Virus genome (UHGV): UHGV-0248752
Source of the DNA: a virus
Reading direction: 5' to 3' (one strand)
Length of the DNA: 36,228 bases
Position 1 is the stretch's first letter, and each line of letters begins with the position of its first letter. The notes below the pieces were generated by a model, which searched no databases, was not told where the DNA came from, and saw only the letters and a program-made list of their open reading frames with translations. A program made the position numbers and the translations under genes. Positions 1 through 10,806 of this stretch are shown piece by piece.

Positions 1-105
1 GCACGATGCTGGCTCCGCTGTCAAACTTACGCCAGTCCACGGTTGCTCCGCTTTCTTTAGCAAAGGTGTTGTCGGCCTGAGCCACTTTCGCCGGTTCGGC
101 TGAGG

Positions 106-295
106 TTTGATACGCCACGTGTAACCAGGTGAATCATTTGATACCGACAAGGGTTTTAGTGAAAGGAGGTGAAATCACCTGTAAGATGCTGAAATAAAAC
201 AGGTGATGTATACTTCGGACGGAAAACTCTTTTTGATACCGACTGCTCAACAAATAGTCAAAAGATCAAAAAACGGCGACACATTTGATACTGCT
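106..295. repeat. Cluster of four direct repeats TTTGATAC(C/G)(G/C)AC, candidate transposase-binding sites of the left end
   Basis: Copies at 106-118 (tttgatacgccac), 137-148 (tttgataccgac), 232-243 (tttgataccgac) and 284-295 (tttgatactgct), all same orientation. The first copy lies just inside a TG dinucleotide at 101-102. A 12-bp palindrome ggtgaaatcacc sits at 169-180. Confidence 0.45.
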
Positions 296-475
296 AATTT
301 ACCCTTAAAATCTTCTTCAAAACATCTTCAAACTGCCAAAATGCTCACATAATCGATCTAACTATAATCAGTATGATAATCATCATGAATTACTATTCAA
401 TAGCGTGATTATCTTGGGATGAGTCATATGATCTCTATATGTATTTACAGCACCACCTCATGATAGCGATGGCGC

Positions 476-1087
476 TTAACCAACAACATTTTTCTTTACT
501 GTCACTGCCCCTGATTCCTGGGTGGCGTTATTGCTCGAGTTGTACTTCTCAATAACGCGCAAAATCTCTTTGTCTGTTTCTTCACTTCCCGCCATTCCTA
601 TCTTTATTGCATTTTTTAGTACGGGACGTAATGGCAAGGCATCAATGATGCTTTCTACCGCATCCTGGCTGATTGTAGATGTATTCATTGCTGCCAGCCT
701 GACAAGGTTGTTAGTACCTTCTCGCCTGATGAATGTAAGGATTAATTGCTTCTCTTGGGGGCTTAGAGAGCTAAGCGCCTGATCAATACCCGAACCTGAA
801 TCGCAATTTTTTCCGATTTTTCCGCATTCATCTTCGTTCTTGCCTGTGGCCAACCAGTCGAGTGAACAATTACAGGCTTTAGCTATTAAGGCCAGTTTAT
901 CCAAAGGAGGGAAGTTTTTCCCCTTCCTGTAATTTCTTACTGTGGCTTCAGATAGTCCACAAAGGGTCGCCAGTTCGACGTTTGTCATGTTTCCCATAGC
1001 CATAGCTAAGCGTTCTGAAAATCGGTTTATTCCTTCCATATCAATAAACCGTTCCGCACTGGATACGGTTTTTTCTGCCTTATCCAT
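476..1087 (-). CDS. Prophage repressor (c-like) with N-terminal XRE-type helix-turn-helix
   Basis: 203-aa ORF transcribed divergently from ner/A/B at the left end. N-terminal segment TNVELATLCGLSEATVRNYRKGK fits an HTH_XRE motif. Position matches the Mu c repressor. Confidence 0.75.
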   Translation of the reverse strand: MDKAEKTVSSAERFIDMEGINRFSERLAMAMGNMTNVELATLCGLSEATVRNYRKGKNFPPLDKLALIAKACNCSLDWLATGKNEDECGKIGKNCDSGSGIDQALSSLSPQEKQLILTFIRREGTNNLVRLAAMNTSTISQDAVESIIDALPLRPVLKNAIKIGMAGSEETDKEILRVIEKYNSSNNATQESGAVTVKKNVVG

Positions 1088-7686: not shown

Positions 7687-8201
7687 TGTTCTTTAAAACA
7701 TCAAACCCTTCCGCGCTGGCTGCGTGGCAAAAATACCAGCAGGACTGCCAGAAAGTTAAGGATGAGGCAAAACGCCTTGAGGCCGTGCTGAATGTTGCGT
7801 GCCGGTCGGTATTTGTATCCGGTATCAGTGGATTTTGCTTTAAGGGACTGCGTTTTACGGAGGACAAATATCCTTTTCATCGCGACTTATGGCGAAAACC
7901 GACTGCGTCGAATGGCTGGAGCTGCACACCGCGCACATCACGTATCCCTAAAACCCTGCGTGTTGCCTCTGATGAACTGAACAGTCTGTGGCGTGAATAT
8001 TCGCCCGTCACGTATGCCAGAACCGATGCGCTGTTGTTCTGGCTGGGTATTGATTTCTCGGCAATCCTGTTTGGCCCTGTGAAGTGGTTCTGCGTTGACG
8101 ATGTGATTTACCTTCAGTGCGGCGTAAAACCCGCAAAACAGAAAATGACCGAAATACTGTCTGATGAGTTTTATGCTGCTGAAAAGCGAGTCAGGGGGTG
8201 A
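7686..8201 (+). CDS. Hypothetical early protein
   Basis: 171-aa ORF with start overlapping the previous stop. No recognisable motif. Confidence 0.5.
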   Translation: MFFKTSNPSALAAWQKYQQDCQKVKDEAKRLEAVLNVACRSVFVSGISGFCFKGLRFTEDKYPFHRDLWRKPTASNGWSCTPRTSRIPKTLRVASDELNSLWREYSPVTYARTDALLFWLGIDFSAILFGPVKWFCVDDVIYLQCGVKPAKQKMTEILSDEFYAAEKRVRG

Positions 8202-8204
8202 TGC

Positions 8205-8756
8205 ATGATGAAATTACAACCCATGGGACTAAAAGGTCGCGCCCCCGCTCATGTCCGTCCGTGGACACCTGAAGAAGATGCGCTGCTGATTGCGCTTTAT
8301 TCATCCACCCCGGTTAAGGATATTGCTGCCAGAATAAAAAGAACTGTCTGGGCTGTATATAACCGGACTGGTGTATTGCGCAGTTCATACCCGGAGTTAC
8401 TGAAATATAAACACCCAAGATTTACACCTGATGAAGATAAGTTTATTCGAAAAAATGCCAGAACAATGACCTGCCAGCAAATGGGAGAATATCTCGGACG
8501 TAATAAAGATTCTGTCAGATGTCGGGCAGGAATGATTGGTGCTGGATTAACAAAGTGCGGAGAGTTACGCCCCGGCACGCGCATATCTGATGATGATGTA
8601 CGTCTTATACGTGCGCTGCGTGATTCCGATTACCCACGCCGTCTGTCATTCCGGGAAATTGGCGAAAAGTTTGGAATATCTGAACATTCTGCTCACGCAG
8701 TTTATTACCGTCGCCGGACTGCCGAGGACGCTGTATTACGGGAGTTAACGCCATGA
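8205..8756 (+). CDS. Hypothetical protein with three W/F-TP-EED helix-turn-helix-like repeats, putative DNA binding
   Basis: 183 aa containing WTPEEDALLIALY, FTPDEDKFIRKNA and ISDDDVRLIRAL spaced about 50 aa apart, reminiscent of Myb/SANT-type repeats. Function not established. Confidence 0.5.
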   Translation: MMKLQPMGLKGRAPAHVRPWTPEEDALLIALYSSTPVKDIAARIKRTVWAVYNRTGVLRSSYPELLKYKHPRFTPDEDKFIRKNARTMTCQQMGEYLGRNKDSVRCRAGMIGAGLTKCGELRPGTRISDDDVRLIRALRDSDYPRRLSFREIGEKFGISEHSAHAVYYRRRTAEDAVLRELTP

Positions 8757-9085
8757 TAACGACCTTATTTGTTGAATCAGATGAACCTCTTGTGTGTGCC
8801 GCCGGAATGCCGCTCTGTGGCGGAACGCTGACCGGCGTTTATTTCGGGGATTTGCGCGGTTATCCCTGGCATTCACTGGATGACGCATTTCCGCCTGATA
8901 TGGAGGCTGTCGTGCTGATTGTTCAGTATGGTGACCAACAGGAACTGCGCATCGGCCATATGGGGTATGAAGGCTTTTTTATTGATGAAGAAACCGGAGC
9001 CTGCCTTGAAGATGAGGACGGACAGGTGACGCACTGGTGCCATCTTTCGGCCTTGCCGGAATTACAGGGGATACATAATGGATGA
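8753..9085 (+). CDS. Hypothetical early protein
   Basis: 110-aa acidic ORF whose start overlaps the previous stop (translational coupling). Confidence 0.5.
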   Translation: MITTLFVESDEPLVCAAGMPLCGGTLTGVYFGDLRGYPWHSLDDAFPPDMEAVVLIVQYGDQQELRIGHMGYEGFFIDEETGACLEDEDGQVTHWCHLSALPELQGIHNG

Positions 9086-9221
9086 GCAAATTGTTGAATG
9101 TCCCACCTGTGGAAATGAGGACCCGGAGTATCTGAAAGAGTGCCCACATTGTGGTGAGATAAAATGTAACCACTGCGATATGGGCGACGACACTGCATGT
9201 ATAAATTGTGAGGATGAATAA
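9078..9221 (+). CDS. Small zinc-ribbon-like miniprotein (four Cys pairs)
   Basis: 47-aa ORF MDEQIVECPTCGNEDPEYLKECPHCGEIKCNHCDMGDDTACINCEDE. Not in the ORF track (under 60 aa). ATG overlaps the upstream stop. Four Cys pairs (CxxC, CxxC, CxxC, CxxC). Confidence 0.45.
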   Translation: MDEQIVECPTCGNEDPEYLKECPHCGEIKCNHCDMGDDTACINCEDE

Positions 9222-9222
9222 T

Positions 9223-9510
9223 ATGGAAAAAGAAATCAAATTTGCGCCTAAATCTATCGACGAAGAACTGGCTAAAATCGGCATGCTTGAACGTATGCGG
9301 GACATTATCGAATATGCGATAAAAGAAAATCTTGCAGCCAGAGAAGCCCTTTTGATAATGGAGCGGGAGATTAACCTGATTAAGGATGCTGTATCTCTGG
9401 ATAATAAAATAGCCCGCGAGGAATACGTTCGCCGCAGGCTCGGTGTTGATGGTTCAGCAATTCTTACATCTGAACATTATGCAAAAATTTTTAATCTTTT
9501 TCAGCGGTAA
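9223..9510 (+). CDS. Hypothetical protein in a low-GC island
   Basis: ATG at 9223 (MEKEIKF...) directly after the zinc-ribbon stop; the track ORF starts earlier at 9208. 95 aa, Lys/Glu-rich with coiled-coil character, AT-rich codon usage. Confidence 0.5.
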   Translation: MEKEIKFAPKSIDEELAKIGMLERMRDIIEYAIKENLAAREALLIMEREINLIKDAVSLDNKIAREEYVRRRLGVDGSAILTSEHYAKIFNLFQR

Positions 9511-9730
9511 TCCCCATACAGGCCCGGAGATTGTCGAAATGCCGGTCGGTATTAATATATGAGCCATCCTGGATATCTTCTGCATTTTCCGGGGTAGAGT
9601 TTTTTTGAGCGAGATTGATAATATGTATTGCCTCCTCACGGGAAATCAGCCCCTTATCGAACAGGGTTACCATAAGATTTCCAGCCATTGTGAATGCGGC
9701 AACATCAAGTGCATTTTTTATATCTGACAT
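9491..9730 (-). CDS. Hypothetical protein encoded antisense to the early operon
   Basis: 79-aa minus-strand ORF with RBS aagga 7 nt upstream of its ATG (reverse complement of 9731-9745). Converges on and overlaps the 3' end of 9223-9510 by 20 bp. Low-GC region. Confidence 0.4.
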   Translation of the reverse strand: MSDIKNALDVAAFTMAGNLMVTLFDKGLISREEAIHIINLAQKNSTPENAEDIQDGSYINTDRHFDNLRACMGITAEKD

Positions 9731-9800
9731 AGATTTTTCCTTTTATGTTAATTGACATGGCGGTGCGGTAACACCGCCCATTTTTTATGGAGCCACGATA

Positions 9801-10313
9801 ATGAATCGCGCTTCCCTGATTACCTTAATACATGTCGCAAAACGCGATCTACAGCTTGACCATGATACCTATACATCCGCGCTGCTGGCAGCCACCGGCA
9901 AATCCAGTTGCCGTGATATGTCACCCGGTGAGTTATCCCGCGTGCTGGATGTTTTCAAAAAACGCGGTTTTAAAGTGCGTCAGAAGCCGGTTAACCGGGC
10001 CTTAAAACCGGGTACGGTGACCGCCAAAATTCGCGCCATCTGGAAAGTGATGCACCGGCAGGGATTTATCTCTGATGGCGGGGAAACGGCCCTTAACCGC
10101 TGGGTGAAATCGCAGACGGCCGCGCAGAACGACGGCGAAGGTGTGGCTAACTGGCAGTGGCTGGAGCAACAACCCGCGCTGGCCTCTGATGTGCTGGAGC
10201 GTCTCAAACGCTGGCACCGCCGCAAAATGCTGGCAGCCCTGGATATGTCGGAACGTGCAGTGATGAGTTATGAGCGTGTTTGCAGGCTGTATGAAAAATC
10301 ATTCCCCCGTTAA
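9801..10313 (+). CDS. GemA-like protein (Mu gp16 family)
   Basis: 170 aa. N-terminus LITLIHVAKRDLQLDHDTYTSALLAATGKSSCRDMSPGELSRV fits the pattern I recall for Mu GemA. Position immediately upstream of the Mor/C gene, as in Mu. Confidence 0.75.
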   Translation: MNRASLITLIHVAKRDLQLDHDTYTSALLAATGKSSCRDMSPGELSRVLDVFKKRGFKVRQKPVNRALKPGTVTAKIRAIWKVMHRQGFISDGGETALNRWVKSQTAAQNDGEGVANWQWLEQQPALASDVLERLKRWHRRKMLAALDMSERAVMSYERVCRLYEKSFPR

Positions 10314-10317
10314 CCCC

Positions 10318-10349
10318 AAATCCCGCCACAGCGCGGGATTTTTATTTTA
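10318..10349 (+). terminator. Rho-independent terminator after the gemA-like gene
   Basis: Stem aatcccgc / gcgggatt with a short loop, followed by TTTTTATTTT, directly after the stop at 10311-10313. Confidence 0.6.
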
Positions 10350-10383
10350 AACTTGCCCTGTGTAATGATGACCGGAGGCGGGT

Positions 10384-10806
10384 ATGGCTGAAACACAGAT
10401 GAGCATGTTTGGTGACAGCGAACAGCTGCACGCGCTGATTGACCGTCTGGATGATATTCCTGATGATGAGCTGAAAAAGAACTGGCCCGGCACGCTGCGG
10501 GACCTGGTTGATGTGATCAGTGCTGAACTGCACCGTCAGGGGATTGAACCTGCTCAGGCGGGAATGCTTGCCCGTAAGGTTGCAGCCGCACAGGCCGGGT
10601 ACATGGGCGGGCGTGGTTATTATCTCCCGGTCGGTGAATCCCTTTTCACCGAACTGCGCAATAATGAAATTTTTTCCCGCTGGAGCCAGGGCGAAAAAAT
10701 TGAAACCCTGCGCCGCCACTACCAGATGTCAGAGACGCAGATTTACTCCGTTATCCGCAACCAGCGTCGCCTGCATCAGGAGCGCACGCAGCCCCGGCTT
10801 TTCTGA
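10384..10806 (+). CDS. Mor/C-family transcriptional activator of middle/late genes
   Basis: 140 aa. C-terminal GRGYYLPVGESL...IYSVIRNQRRL matches the Mor/C pattern (YIPRG ... VY.AIR..RR). Cannot distinguish Mor from C. It is the only family member between gemA and the lysis genes. Confidence 0.85.
   Translation: MAETQMSMFGDSEQLHALIDRLDDIPDDELKKNWPGTLRDLVDVISAELHRQGIEPAQAGMLARKVAAAQAGYMGGRGYYLPVGESLFTELRNNEIFSRWSQGEKIETLRRHYQMSETQIYSVIRNQRRLHQERTQPRLF

What the first reader, a model, noticed from the sequence alone, without database searches (positions are those of the whole stretch)
9078..9800. Low-GC three-gene island with an antisense ORF inside the early operon
The stretch 9078-9800 is visibly more AT-rich than its surroundings. 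It encodes a 47-aa four-Cys-pair zinc-ribbon miniprotein, a 95-aa Lys/Glu-rich protein, and a 79-aa ORF on the opposite strand with its own RBS. The two larger ORFs converge and overlap by 20 bp. A hairpin ggcggtg-cggtaa-caccgcc followed by a T-run sits at about 9760-9787, just before the gemA-like gene. This looks like an acquired moron, possibly an antisense-regulated or toxin-antitoxin-like pair. None of the products is recognisable.
Basis: seen in the sequence. Interest (0 to 1): 0.5.

Follow-up and report, generated by a model that had tools for sequence, protein, structure and literature searches.

The report
Phage Mu gp13-gp14-gp15 early-gene cassette
The low-GC "island" is the counterpart of phage Mu's long-annotated but uncharacterised early genes 13, 14 and 15. 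It is not a newly acquired gene set. The backwards-facing gene (gp15) is real, and in every relative examined it occurs together with gene 14 and two conserved RNA hairpins.

Summary

**Gene identities**
- The 47-aa zinc ribbon is Mu gp13: 88% identity over the 41 aligned residues.
- The 95-aa protein is Mu gp14: 49% identity.
- The 79-aa minus-strand ORF is the positional and sequence counterpart of Mu gp15, in the same slot, on the same strand, with the same hairpin before gemA.

**The minus-strand ORF is a real gene**
- dN/dS is about 0.25 in its own frame only.
- Homologues at 36-48% identity lie at exactly this place in at least five other lineages.

**What is new here**
- gp14, gp15 and the GGCGGTG-N6-CACCGCC hairpin always occur together: 26 loci, about 11 lineages, including Mu and D108.
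- A leftward intrinsic terminator for gp15 is embedded in the gp14 coding sequence. It shows G-C/A-U covariation and has G·U pairs that work only on the minus-strand RNA.
- The two genes therefore form a convergent pair in which each transcript should run antisense across the other.

**What remains unknown or unsupported**
- The functions of all three proteins are unknown.
- Nothing links them to defence or toxin-antitoxin systems.
- Low GC is shared by the same module in Mu and two other lineages, so it does not indicate recent acquisition.

**Side result:** the current GenBank Mu record replaced gp15 with a plus-strand "gene 54". The comparative evidence here favours gp15.

The parts
9078..9221 (+). 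gp13-like zinc-ribbon miniprotein (47 aa, four CxxC pairs), homologue of Mu gp13/E14. It is not obligatorily linked to the gp14-gp15 cassette.
   Evidence: blastp against Mu gp13 gives 88% identity over 41 aa, E 6e-27. phrog_5584 matches at E 3e-26. gp13 is present in only 13 of the 26 gp14/gp15 loci and also occurs in two DUF2513-type loci.
9223..9510 (+). gp14-like protein (95 aa, helical), homologue of Mu gp14/E15. It is the convergent partner of gp15.
   Evidence: blastp against Mu gp14 gives 49% identity over 94 aa, E 2e-30. phrog_6075 matches at E 5e-44. The AF2 model has pLDDT 87 and a long helix at 39-73, with no PDB fold match. gp14 always co-occurs with gp15.
9400..9440 (-). Leftward intrinsic terminator for the gp15 transcript, embedded in gp14 codons 60-74 (DNKIAREEYVRRRLG). 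The stem is at 9411-9440 and the U-rich tail is at 9400-9410, 51 nt past the gp15 stop.
   Evidence: RNAfold and my own scan find it in the window. It is present in all 11 gp14 lineages, including Mu (the TransTermHP feature at 7839-7873) and D108. 92.7% of cells are paired against 37-56% when the partner is slid. There is G-C to A-U covariation, and 1 of 500 shuffles reaches the covariation score. 102 of 110 cells pair on the minus-strand RNA against 89 of 110 on the plus strand, with 14 G·U cells.
9491..9730 (-). gp15-like gene (79 aa, four predicted helices), counterpart of Mu gp15 (Mup15). This copy carries R63 where the relatives have Trp.
   Evidence: phrog_32893 matches full length at E 2e-43. 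dN/dS is 0.22-0.39 in this frame only. Homologues at 36-48% identity sit at the same site in other Mu-like prophages. hhalign against Mu gp15 gives 92% probability, E 5e-7. Mu gp15 also hits phrog_32893 at E 6e-4.
9738..9742 (-). Shine-Dalgarno sequence AAGGA of gp15, 7 nt before its ATG (9730-9728).
   Evidence: Read directly from the sequence. An AAGGA or GAGG motif occupies the same place in the other lineages.
9759..9787 (+). Conserved GC-rich stem-loop GGCGGTG-N6-CACCGCC (9759-9778) plus a T6 tail (9781-9786). In this window it reads as a rightward terminator or attenuator immediately before the gemA ribosome-binding site (GGAG, 9789-9792).
   Evidence: The terminator scan finds it. The exact stem occurs in Mu, D108 and every gp15-family locus. 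The five outer pairs are invariant and the two inner pairs covary. The Mu record places a 'semi-early promoter' over it.
9801..10313 (+). gemA (gp16 family), the gene downstream of the cassette and divergent from gp15 across a 70-bp spacer.
   Evidence: Pfam GemA matches at E 2e-28. RefSeq names it 'gp16 family protein'. The spacer is 68-71 nt in four lineages.

Best explanation
**Shown.** 9078-9800 is the gp13-gp14-gp15 segment of the semi-essential early region of a Mu-like prophage. ORF79 is a real protein-coding gene read leftward and is the counterpart of Mu gp15. It has its own Shine-Dalgarno sequence. It also has its own leftward intrinsic terminator, which lies inside the coding sequence of gp14. 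gp14, gp15 and the GGCGGTG-N6-CACCGCC stem-loop in front of gemA form one unit that is present or absent as a whole among Mu-like phages.

**Inferred mechanism.**
- Rightward early transcription from Pe passes through gp14 and then runs antisense, untranslated, across all of gp15 until it reaches the stem-loop.
- Leftward gp15 transcription runs antisense across the last third of gp14 until it reaches its terminator.
- The two genes should therefore oppose each other by transcriptional interference and RNA pairing. gp15 would be favoured when Pe is repressed (the lysogen) and silenced when Pe fires.
- In this window the stem-loop plus its U6 tract should attenuate early read-through into gemA-mor. 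The cassette would then split the early operon just ahead of the middle-gene activator.

**Not inferable.** What the gp14 and gp15 proteins do cannot be derived. Both are small helical proteins with no recognisable fold. The gp15 promoter was not found.
For: **Identity with Mu genes**
- blastn of the region hits Mu and D108 at genes 13/14.
- Protein identities to Mu gp13 and gp14 are 88% and 49%.
- RefSeq Mu and SfMu annotate a minus-strand gene in the same slot.
- hhalign of the ORF79-family profile against Mu gp15 gives 92% probability, E 5e-7.
- Mu gp15 has a secondary hit to phrog_32893, E 6e-4.

**Coding status**
- dN/dS is 0.22-0.39 in the gp15 frame. The other five frames contain stops and have pN about equal to pS.
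- A full HMMER scan finds 67-91-aa homologues that conserve both the N-terminal motif and the C-terminal WH(L/F)DNL motif.

**Synteny**
- The four homologues whose contigs were fetched lie opposite-strand between a gp14-like gene and gemA, three with a 68-71-nt spacer; on the short P0012 contig the downstream gene carried no GemA call and its called start gave 155 nt.

**Co-occurrence**
- Among 93 gemA-anchored loci, 19 have gp14, gp15 and the hairpin, and 74 have none of them.
- Seven further loci found through gp14 or gp15 all have the complete set.

**Leftward terminator**
- See: covariation, strand-specific G·U pairs and a U-tail in all lineages.

**Stem-loop before gemA**

**Loci without a reverse gene**
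- They lack the stem-loop, and gemA is translationally coupled to the upstream gene.
Against: - No promoter for gp15 could be identified. The sigma-70 scan found no more sites than shuffled sequence gives.
- No expression data were available.
- The U-tract after the stem-loop is weak in several lineages (Mu: CCCUUUCC). Averaged over lineages the tail is no more T-rich on the + strand than on the - strand (4.9 against 4.5 of 9). "Rightward terminator" is therefore secure only for this lineage.
- Symmetric covariation in the stem would also arise in a palindromic protein-binding site.
- The Mu GenBank record places a rightward promoter over this element. I could not read the paper behind that annotation.
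- The window's own gp15 copy has Arg at the family's near-invariant Trp and may be impaired.
- The conserved gp14 amino-acid motif could by itself account for part of the conservation of the terminator sequence.
Confidence: 0.6

Rival explanations
1. ORF79, with or without its neighbours, is a horizontally acquired moron. On this reading it is a prophage-expressed accessory gene such as superinfection exclusion, defence or anti-defence, inserted in reverse orientation into the early operon.
For: - The slot in front of gemA does hold alternative reverse-oriented genes in related prophages. Twelve of the surveyed loci carry DUF2513/phrog_585.
- Other reverse genes lie between gemA and mor.
- Many Mu-like phages have no reverse gene at all.
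- The region is low in GC.
- The gene has its own terminator.
- It is on the same strand as the repressor gene.
Against: - The gene family is old within Mu-like phages. Homologues are down to 36% identity yet keep the same position, partner and hairpin, and the family is present in Mu and D108.
- Low GC is shared by all lineages checked.
- There is no hit in PADLOC, Pfam or NCBIfam.
- The strict linkage to gp14, a gene of the early operon, is not expected of a free-standing moron.
Confidence: 0.15
2. gp14 and gp15 form a toxin-antitoxin-like pair. One product or RNA would neutralise the other, either through the 3' antisense overlap (type I-like) or by protein binding.
For: - The two genes co-occur strictly.
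- They are convergent with overlapping 3' ends and mutually antisense transcripts, a layout seen in some type I systems (established knowledge).
Against: - No toxin or antitoxin domain is recognised.
- gp15 has no transmembrane-length hydrophobic segment and is acidic, unlike small type I toxins.
- Both partners are proteins of 80-100 aa.
- The coding overlap varies from 4 to 62 bp.
- The co-occurrence is already explained by gp15's terminator lying inside gp14.
Confidence: 0.07
3. The stem-loop at 9759-9778 acts on DNA rather than RNA. On this reading it is a palindromic operator in the 70-bp divergent gp15/gemA control region, bound by a dimeric regulator that controls the 'semi-early' gemA-mor promoter and/or the gp15 promoter.
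For: - The five outer base pairs are sequence-invariant across phages whose flanking spacer has diverged completely. That is unusual for a plain terminator.
- The element lies roughly mid-spacer.
- The Mu record annotates a promoter across it.
- The U-tract is not conserved as strongly as the stem.
- Within Mu, the early terminator t9.2 sits inside the annotated, Mor-activated middle promoter region.
Against: - gp15 itself is acidic and shows no helix-turn-helix motif.
- The sequence does not resemble the dyad upstream of Pm.
- In this window the element has a canonical U6 tail.
- One variant keeps pairing through a G·U pair that works only on + strand RNA.
Confidence: 0.15
4. The minus-strand ORF is not a gene. 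The coding strand would be the plus strand, as in the current GenBank Mu annotation (gene 54), or the stretch would be non-coding.
For: - The updated AF083977 record drops gp15 and annotates plus-strand Mu_54.
- D108 RefSeq annotates nothing in this stretch.
- All five Mu/SfMu differences within gp15 are non-synonymous in the gp15 frame, though this sample is too small to weigh.
Against: - In this window every plus-strand frame across the stretch contains stops, and only the gp15 frame shows purifying selection.
- Mu_54 matches no PHROG, whereas Mu gp15 matches phrog_8747 (E 7e-60) and phrog_32893.
- The minus ORF is conserved in length and motifs down to 36% identity.
- It has a conserved Shine-Dalgarno sequence and a strand-specific terminator.
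Confidence: 0.03

Closest known systems
Phage Mu gp15 (Mup15, NP_050619.1; 'F-134' in M64097; phrog_8747) and its homologue in SfMu
   Same: It occupies the same slot between gp14 and gemA, on the opposite strand. It converges on and overlaps gp14. The same GGCGGTG-N6-CACCGCC stem-loop lies between its start and gemA, and the same leftward terminator lies inside gp14. The N-terminal 52 residues are homologous: hhalign 92% probability, and Mu gp15 hits phrog_32893 at E 6e-4.
   Different: Over the aligned N-terminal part identity is only 25%, and the two proteins fall in different PHROG families. The C-terminal halves are not alignable: the window family has WH(L/F)DNL and Mu does not. Lengths are 79 aa against 88 aa, and the overlap with gp14 is 20 bp against 62 bp. 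D108 carries a copy closer to the window family, and it is unannotated.
Phage Mu gp13 (E14) and gp14 (E15), semi-essential early region
   Same: The gene order and strand are the same. gp13 is 88% identical over the zinc-ribbon core and gp14 is 49% identical over its full length. Both are of unknown function in Mu as well.
   Different: The window's gp13 lacks the 19-residue N-terminal extension of Mu gp13. Upstream neighbours differ: the window has a SANT/Myb-like gene and a 110-aa gene where Mu has gp11 and gp12.
Convergent gene pairs with overlapping 3' untranslated regions / type I toxin-antitoxin layouts (txpA/RatA, bsrG/SR4 in Bacillus subtilis; overlapping 3' UTRs in Staphylococcus aureus). 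This comparison rests on my own knowledge.
   Same: Two transcription units face each other, and each should end beyond the other's stop codon. The RNAs are therefore complementary over tens to hundreds of bases.
   Different: Both partners here encode conserved proteins. No toxicity is known. One partner is embedded in a long phage early operon rather than being a free-standing locus.
Mu early terminator t9.2 nested in the middle promoter Pm
   Same: Both are GC-rich stem-loops with a T-run at the boundary between two temporal transcription units. In both cases the reference record annotates a promoter across the stem-loop.
   Different: The sequences differ (AAGCCGG-TTAAT-CCGGCTT). t9.2 and Pm have an experimental record; the element before gemA was analysed here by sequence only.
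DUF2513 / phrog_585 reverse genes in the same slot of other Mu-like prophages
   Same: They are also on the opposite strand, immediately upstream of gemA, and converge on and overlap a ~100-aa plus-strand partner (phrog_1988). Several have a related stem-loop: GGCGGCG..TGCCGCC or GGCGGTT..CACCGCC.
   Different: The protein is unrelated (136-151 aa). My scan found no embedded leftward terminator in L002. Two lineages have no GC-rich stem-loop (L066, L102).

Membership tests
Mu gp15 family (phrog_32893 / phrog_8747) | Sequence similarity to family members | tested here: met
   phrog_32893 matches full length at E 1.8e-43. The family profile against Mu gp15 gives hhalign probability 92%, E 5e-7. 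Mu gp15 hits phrog_32893 at E 6e-4.
Mu gp15 family (phrog_32893 / phrog_8747) | Location between gp14 and gemA on the strand opposite to the early operon | tested here: met
   This holds in the window and in Mu, SfMu, D108, L019-L027, L053, L101 and L110-L116.
Mu gp15 family (phrog_32893 / phrog_8747) | The gene is expressed as a protein | not testable with these tools
   Only indirect evidence is available: dN/dS of 0.22-0.39, a conserved Shine-Dalgarno sequence and a strand-specific terminator.
Mu gp14 family (phrog_6075) | Sequence similarity and a position upstream of gp15/gemA on the early strand | tested here: met
   phrog_6075 matches at E 5e-44. Identity to Mu gp14 is 49%, E 2e-30.
Mu gp13 family (phrog_5584) | Four-CxxC zinc-ribbon core similar to Mu gp13 | tested here: met
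   phrog_5584 matches at E 3e-26. Identity to Mu gp13 is 88% over 41 aa. Pfam zinc-ribbon models match only below their thresholds.
Moron (autonomously expressed accessory gene in a prophage) | Own terminator | tested here: met
   A conserved leftward terminator is at 9400-9440. The evidence is from sequence only.
Moron (autonomously expressed accessory gene in a prophage) | Own promoter | tested here: inconclusive
   No convincing or conserved sigma-70 promoter was found. The scan found 3 sites against 2.7 expected, and the only minus-strand candidate upstream of gp15 scores 9/12 and lies inside gemA.
Moron (autonomously expressed accessory gene in a prophage) | Presence/absence between otherwise similar phages, with composition that sets it apart as a recent arrival | tested here: not met
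   The gp14-gp15 cassette does show presence/absence. However, it is conserved down to 36% identity, it is present in Mu itself, and its low GC is shared by all lineages checked.
Toxin-antitoxin system | Recognisable toxin or antitoxin domain, or a small hydrophobic toxin | tested here: not met
   No hit in Pfam, NCBIfam or PADLOC. gp15 is acidic and is predicted to be a soluble four-helix protein.
Toxin-antitoxin system | Toxicity of one partner that is relieved by the other | not testable with these tools
   This needs expression experiments.
Known anti-phage defence systems (PADLOC) | Match to a defence-system protein model | tested here: not met
   gp13, gp14 and gp15 matched no family at E up to 10. 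DUF2513 and the other reverse-slot genes matched none at E up to 1; one plus-strand partner had a negligible hit, E 0.068.
Rho-independent terminator (stem-loop at 9759-9787, + strand) | GC-rich stem of at least 5 bp, a short loop and a U-tract directly after the stem | tested here: met
   The window has a 7-bp stem with 6 G-C pairs, a 6-nt loop and the tail CATTTTTTAT. In other lineages the U-tract is weaker.
Rho-independent terminator (stem-loop at 9759-9787, + strand) | Transcripts actually end there | not testable with these tools
   This needs 3'-end mapping.

The most novel reading that the evidence does not exclude
The gp14-gp15 cassette would be a built-in convergent antisense switch at the junction between the early operon and the gemA-mor unit of Mu-type phages. 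In the lysogen, gp15 would be made from its own leftward unit. On induction, Pe-driven transcription would silence it and supply gp14 as its protein-level partner or antagonist. The stem-loop would terminate Pe transcripts, while a promoter starting inside its 5' arm (the annotated 'semi-early' promoter) would escape termination. Together these would set the timing or dose of the middle activator Mor.
Probability: 0.2. Interest if true: 0.6.

Novelty: new member of a known kind. Interest (0 to 1): 0.35.

Why it matters
Mu is a model phage, yet genes 13-15 have no known function, and the two reference annotations disagree on whether gene 15 exists. RefSeq annotates gp15 on the minus strand. The updated GenBank record annotates gene 54 on the plus strand.

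- The comparative evidence here favours the minus-strand gene.
- It also points to an unannotated homologue in D108.
- It shows that gp15 has a terminator written into the codons of gp14, which accounts for the two genes always travelling together.
- That gives concrete, cheap experiments on Mu itself: transcript-end mapping, stop-codon mutants and stem-loop mutants. These bear on how early transcription is handed over to the gemA-mor unit.

For genome annotation more generally, it is a reminder that a reverse-oriented small ORF inside a phage operon can be real.

Tried and rejected
**Family and fold searches that gave nothing useful**
- Defence and toxin-antitoxin profiles (PADLOC), Pfam and NCBIfam gave nothing for the three proteins. 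PADLOC also gave nothing usable for the other reverse-slot genes.
- AlphaFold models of gp15 (pLDDT 78) and gp14 (pLDDT 87) had no significant PDB or BFVD match. The best BFVD lead was the old 134-aa Mu 'left end' ORF, which I take to be an extended version of gp15, at probability 0.6.
- A PDB sequence search with the gp15 profile gave marginal hits (E 0.014-0.05) to the Hsp70 helical lid. I judged this a chance resemblance of a KG-LS-EE helix.
- Rfam had no match in the region.

**Promoter and structure checks**
- The sigma-70 promoter scan found nothing above the shuffled expectation.
- Inspecting the spacers by eye gave -10-like hexamers abutting the stem-loop, but no conserved promoter.
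- The stem-loop does not resemble the dyad upstream of the Mu middle promoter.

**Collection scans**
- Both genome-contig scans returned nothing.
- The nine-sequence gp14 alignment was too diverse to scan with.
- The metagenome scan added only 5 loci.

**Comparisons that were uninformative or negative**
- Mu against SfMu has only 5 differences within gp15, too few to compare frames.
- The apparent frameshift variants of gp15 at the A7 run are most likely homopolymer sequencing errors. The one such contig I inspected (L113) also has homopolymer differences in gp14 and in the hairpin tail.
- No similarity was detected between gp15 and DUF2513, or between gp14 and the DUF2513 partner.

**Literature**
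- The paper behind the Mu 'semi-early promoter' annotation (PMID 9454718) is not held.
- I found no Mu transcriptome or any study of gp13-15.
Full report
**Setting.** The window is a nearly complete Mu-like prophage of E. coli.
- It has a leftward repressor-like gene at 476-1087, transposase A and B genes, and a run of small rightward early genes.
- These are followed by gemA (9801-10313, Pfam GemA E 2e-28), a Mor-family gene (10384-10806), a lysozyme gene and the morphogenetic genes.
- Prophages 99.8-99.9% identical over 8700-10400 occur in five complete E. coli genomes. In all, 232 of 5426 genomes match at least part of that stretch.

- 9078-9800 is 42.0% GC against 54.4% for the window. Only 2.6% of windows of the same length are as low.
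- The three ORFs are present: the four CxxC pairs, the Glu/Lys/Arg-rich 95-aa protein (which starts at 9223), and the 79-aa minus-strand ORF with AAGGA 7 nt before its ATG.
- The 20-bp convergent overlap and the stem-loop GGCGGTG-CGGTAA-CACCGCC at 9759-9778 followed by T6 are also present.
- RefSeq annotates the same convergent pair in the near-identical prophages.

**What the genes are.**
- blastn links 9096-9443 to genes 13 and 14 of phage Mu and D108.
- At protein level the zinc ribbon is 88% identical to Mu gp13 over 41 residues, and the 95-aa protein is 49% identical to Mu gp14 over its full length.
- They match phrog_5584 and phrog_6075 respectively.
- The minus-strand ORF matches phrog_32893 over its full length, E 2e-43.
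- RefSeq Mu (NC_000929) annotates a minus-strand gene in the same slot: gp15 (Mup15, 7896-8162). It overlaps the end of gp14 and lies 70 nt from gemA. SfMu annotates the same gene. The 1991 'left end' record has it as an extended ORF, F-134.
- A profile of the ORF79 family aligns to the N-terminal 52 residues of Mu gp15 with hhalign probability 92%, E 5e-7. Mu gp15 has a secondary hit to phrog_32893, E 6e-4.
- The three genes are therefore the counterparts of Mu gp13, gp14 and gp15, not an unrecognisable island.
- The GC dip is shared. The same module is 46.5% GC in Mu against 54.6% for gemA-mor. It is 46.1% against 55.5% and 42.6% against 50.4% for gemA in two other lineages.

**The antisense ORF is a gene.**
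- Between E. coli variants that are 82-84% identical in protein, dN/dS is 0.22-0.39 in the ORF79 frame. The other five frames contain stops and have pN about equal to pS.
- A word-index-free HMMER scan of 1.8 billion representatives found six further small proteins (67-85 aa) at 35-48% identity.
- These conserve both an N-terminal motif, FD(V/I)AAFT(M/L)AGN..L..L..KG..S.EEA, and a C-terminal motif, WH(L/F)DNL.A.
- I fetched the contigs for four of them (P0011, P0012, P0013, P0014). Each gene lies between a 95-103-aa gp14-like gene, which it converges on and overlaps, and the next rightward gene, from which it diverges. In three loci that gene is a called gemA and the spacer is 68-71 nt. On the 1-kb P0012 contig it carried no GemA call, and only the hairpin-guided start gives a comparable spacer.
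- One of them (P0011) is listed in 679 blocks of the collection.
- D108 also has a family member, and its RefSeq record leaves it unannotated.

**A linked cassette.**
- I collected 80 viral contigs through GemA (79 usable) and typed the region upstream of gemA in all 93 gemA-anchored loci held.
- gp14 and the gp15 family occur together in 19 loci and are both absent from 74. The 19 include Mu, assigned by profile comparison, and two loci assigned by my first HMM.
- Seven further loci reached through gp14 or gp15 all carry gp14, gp15, the stem-loop and gemA.
- In total this is about 11 distinct lineages.
- gp13 is not part of the unit. It is absent from half of these loci and present in two loci that lack gp14 and gp15.
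- Phages without the cassette fall into two groups. In some, gemA is translationally coupled to a rightward gene and there is no stem-loop. Others carry a different reverse-oriented gene in the same slot. That gene is most often a DUF2513/phrog_585 protein of 134-151 aa, which also converges on a ~100-aa partner (phrog_1988).
- Reverse genes also occur between gemA and mor in some E. coli prophages.

**A terminator for gp15 inside gp14.**
- On the minus strand, 51 nt past the gp15 stop, there is a 9-10-bp GC-rich stem (9411-9440) followed by AUUUUAUUAU.
- The same element occupies the same codons of gp14 (N-x-K-A-R/H ... V-R-R-E/R-L-G) in all 11 lineages.
- In Mu it coincides with a TransTermHP terminator that the GenBank record lists, on the + strand, inside gene 14.
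- On a gap-free alignment, 92.7% of cells are paired, against 37-56% when the partner is slid.
- One pair switches G-C to A-U in three lineages. In L098 the Arg-to-His change in K-A-R is matched by a synonymous change in the partner Arg codon. In D108 it is matched by an Arg-to-Cys change. Only 1 of 500 shuffles reaches the covariation score.
- Fourteen cells are G·U pairs, which become A·C mismatches on the other strand. As a result, 102 of 110 cells pair on the minus-strand RNA against 89 of 110 on the plus-strand RNA. The U-rich tail exists only on the minus strand.
- This is independent evidence for a leftward transcription unit. It also explains the obligatory linkage of gp15 to gp14.
- Caveat: the amino-acid motif is itself conserved, so part of the sequence conservation is due to the protein.

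**The stem-loop before gemA.**
- The exact 7+7-nt stem occurs in the window, Mu, D108 and every gp15-family locus, and the spacer around it has diverged completely.
- Variants keep the pairing: U-A to C-G at pair 6, and G-C, G·U or U-A at pair 7, in two gp15-type loci (L098, L107) and in the DUF2513-type loci represented by L002. The five outer pairs never vary.
- In this window it has all the features of a rightward intrinsic terminator, and the tail runs into the gemA Shine-Dalgarno sequence.
- Across lineages the picture is less clear. The U-tract is poor in Mu (CCCUUUCC). The tail is on average no more T-rich on the plus strand than on the minus strand. Folding energy alone is unremarkable.
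- The GenBank Mu record places a 'semi-early promoter' (8151-8217) over the element. I could not obtain the paper behind it.
- The literature I could read reports that the gem operon is expressed constitutively in lysogens (Paolozzi and Ghelardini 1992, as cited in PMC3820752).
- AT-rich -10-like hexamers abut the left side of the stem in most lineages (TGtTAATTG at 9746-9754 here). A rightward promoter starting inside the 5' arm would escape the terminator. This is an untested idea.
- A palindromic protein-binding site remains a live alternative.

**How it most likely works.**
- Shown: gp14 (rightward) and gp15 (leftward) converge. The gp15 unit ends inside gp14. Rightward transcripts must cross all of gp15 antisense and untranslated before reaching the stem-loop and gemA.
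- Inferred: the two units interfere with each other. gp15 would be favoured when Pe is repressed and shut off when Pe fires.
- Inferred: in this lineage the stem-loop attenuates early read-through into gemA-mor.
- The protein functions are unknown. gp15 is a small acidic protein with four predicted helices (pLDDT 78). gp14 is a helical protein with one long helix (pLDDT 87). Neither matches a solved or predicted viral fold.
- No promoter for gp15 was found.

**Comparison with what is known, and novelty.**
- The genes are members of families already annotated in Mu, SfMu and RefSeq E. coli genomes, all as hypothetical proteins. The finding is therefore a new member of a known kind.
- I did not find three things described in the papers available to me: the strict gp14-gp15-stem-loop linkage, the terminator embedded in gp14, and the comparative case for gp15 over the plus-strand 'gene 54'. 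Gene 54 was introduced when the Mu annotation was revised (acknowledged in PMC9239132).
- Mu_54 has no PHROG family. It has no counterpart in this window, where every plus-strand frame is closed.

**Limits.**
- All transcription signals are inferred from sequence.
- The lineage count is modest, and many loci are near-identical.
- The Mu/SfMu comparison is too small to weigh frames.
- The window's own gp15 copy carries Arg at the family's near-invariant Trp.

Noticed in passing
window 9542-9544 (codon 63 of the minus-strand gene): The window's gp15 copy has Arg (CGG). The 99.9%-identical prophages and nearly all other family members have Trp here, in the WH(L/F)DNL motif. This copy may be functionally impaired, or the base may be a sequencing error.
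   Followed up: partly
window 9600-9606 (T7 on +, A7 in the gene): Database 'variants' of gp15 with a different C-terminus (P0005, P0008-P0010) switch frame close to this homopolymer. The contig behind one of them (L113) also has homopolymer-length differences in gp14 and in the hairpin's T-run, so these look like sequencing errors rather than phase variation.
   Followed up: partly
window 10318-10341 plus tail to 10351: A second rightward terminator-like hairpin (AAATCCCGC-CACAGC-GCGGGATTT followed by TTATTTTAAA) lies between gemA and mor. In Mu these two genes overlap and there is no such element. Together with the hairpin at 9759, it brackets gemA in this phage.
   Followed up: no
L003 2369-2635 (Mu 7896-8162) and L029 (D108, between 7905 and 8282): The reference annotations disagree. 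RefSeq Mu and SfMu annotate minus-strand gp15. The updated GenBank AF083977 replaces it with plus-strand Mu_54 (7960-8127). D108 annotates nothing, although it encodes a gp15-family ORF (up to 119 aa as an open frame).
   Followed up: yes
L002 1746-2426; L030, L035, L036, L055, L056, L064, L066, L102: A second family, DUF2513/phrog_585 (N-terminus MKIDYDE...), occupies the same reverse slot before gemA in other Mu-like prophages. It also converges on and overlaps a ~100-aa plus-strand partner (phrog_1988). Several of these loci have a related GC-rich hairpin. Its function is unknown, and there is no PADLOC hit.
   Followed up: partly
L015 2022-2444 (-) and L016 2029-2370 (-): Other E. coli Mu-like prophages carry unrelated reverse-oriented genes (140 aa and 113 aa, matching no family) between gemA and mor. 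Both sides of gemA therefore act as insertion points for leftward genes.
   Followed up: no
E. coli genomes NZ_CP027586.1 and NZ_CP145714.1 (H24 and H31): IS1 and IS5 (ISKpn26) elements are annotated within the stretch matching window 8700-10400. This suggests the region tolerates disruption, as expected of semi-essential genes.
   Followed up: no
window 10-700 and 33200-33760: These are the only other stretches as GC-poor as the finding. The first covers the leftward repressor-like gene region. The second covers a leftward 173-aa ORF near the right end, possibly an invertible tail-fibre segment.
   Followed up: no
window 8205-9085: Upstream of gp13 are a 183-aa SANT/Myb-plus-HTH protein and a 110-aa protein (phrog_6925, with a weak DUF551 match). 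Neither has a counterpart at this position in Mu, where gp11 and gp12 lie.
   Followed up: no
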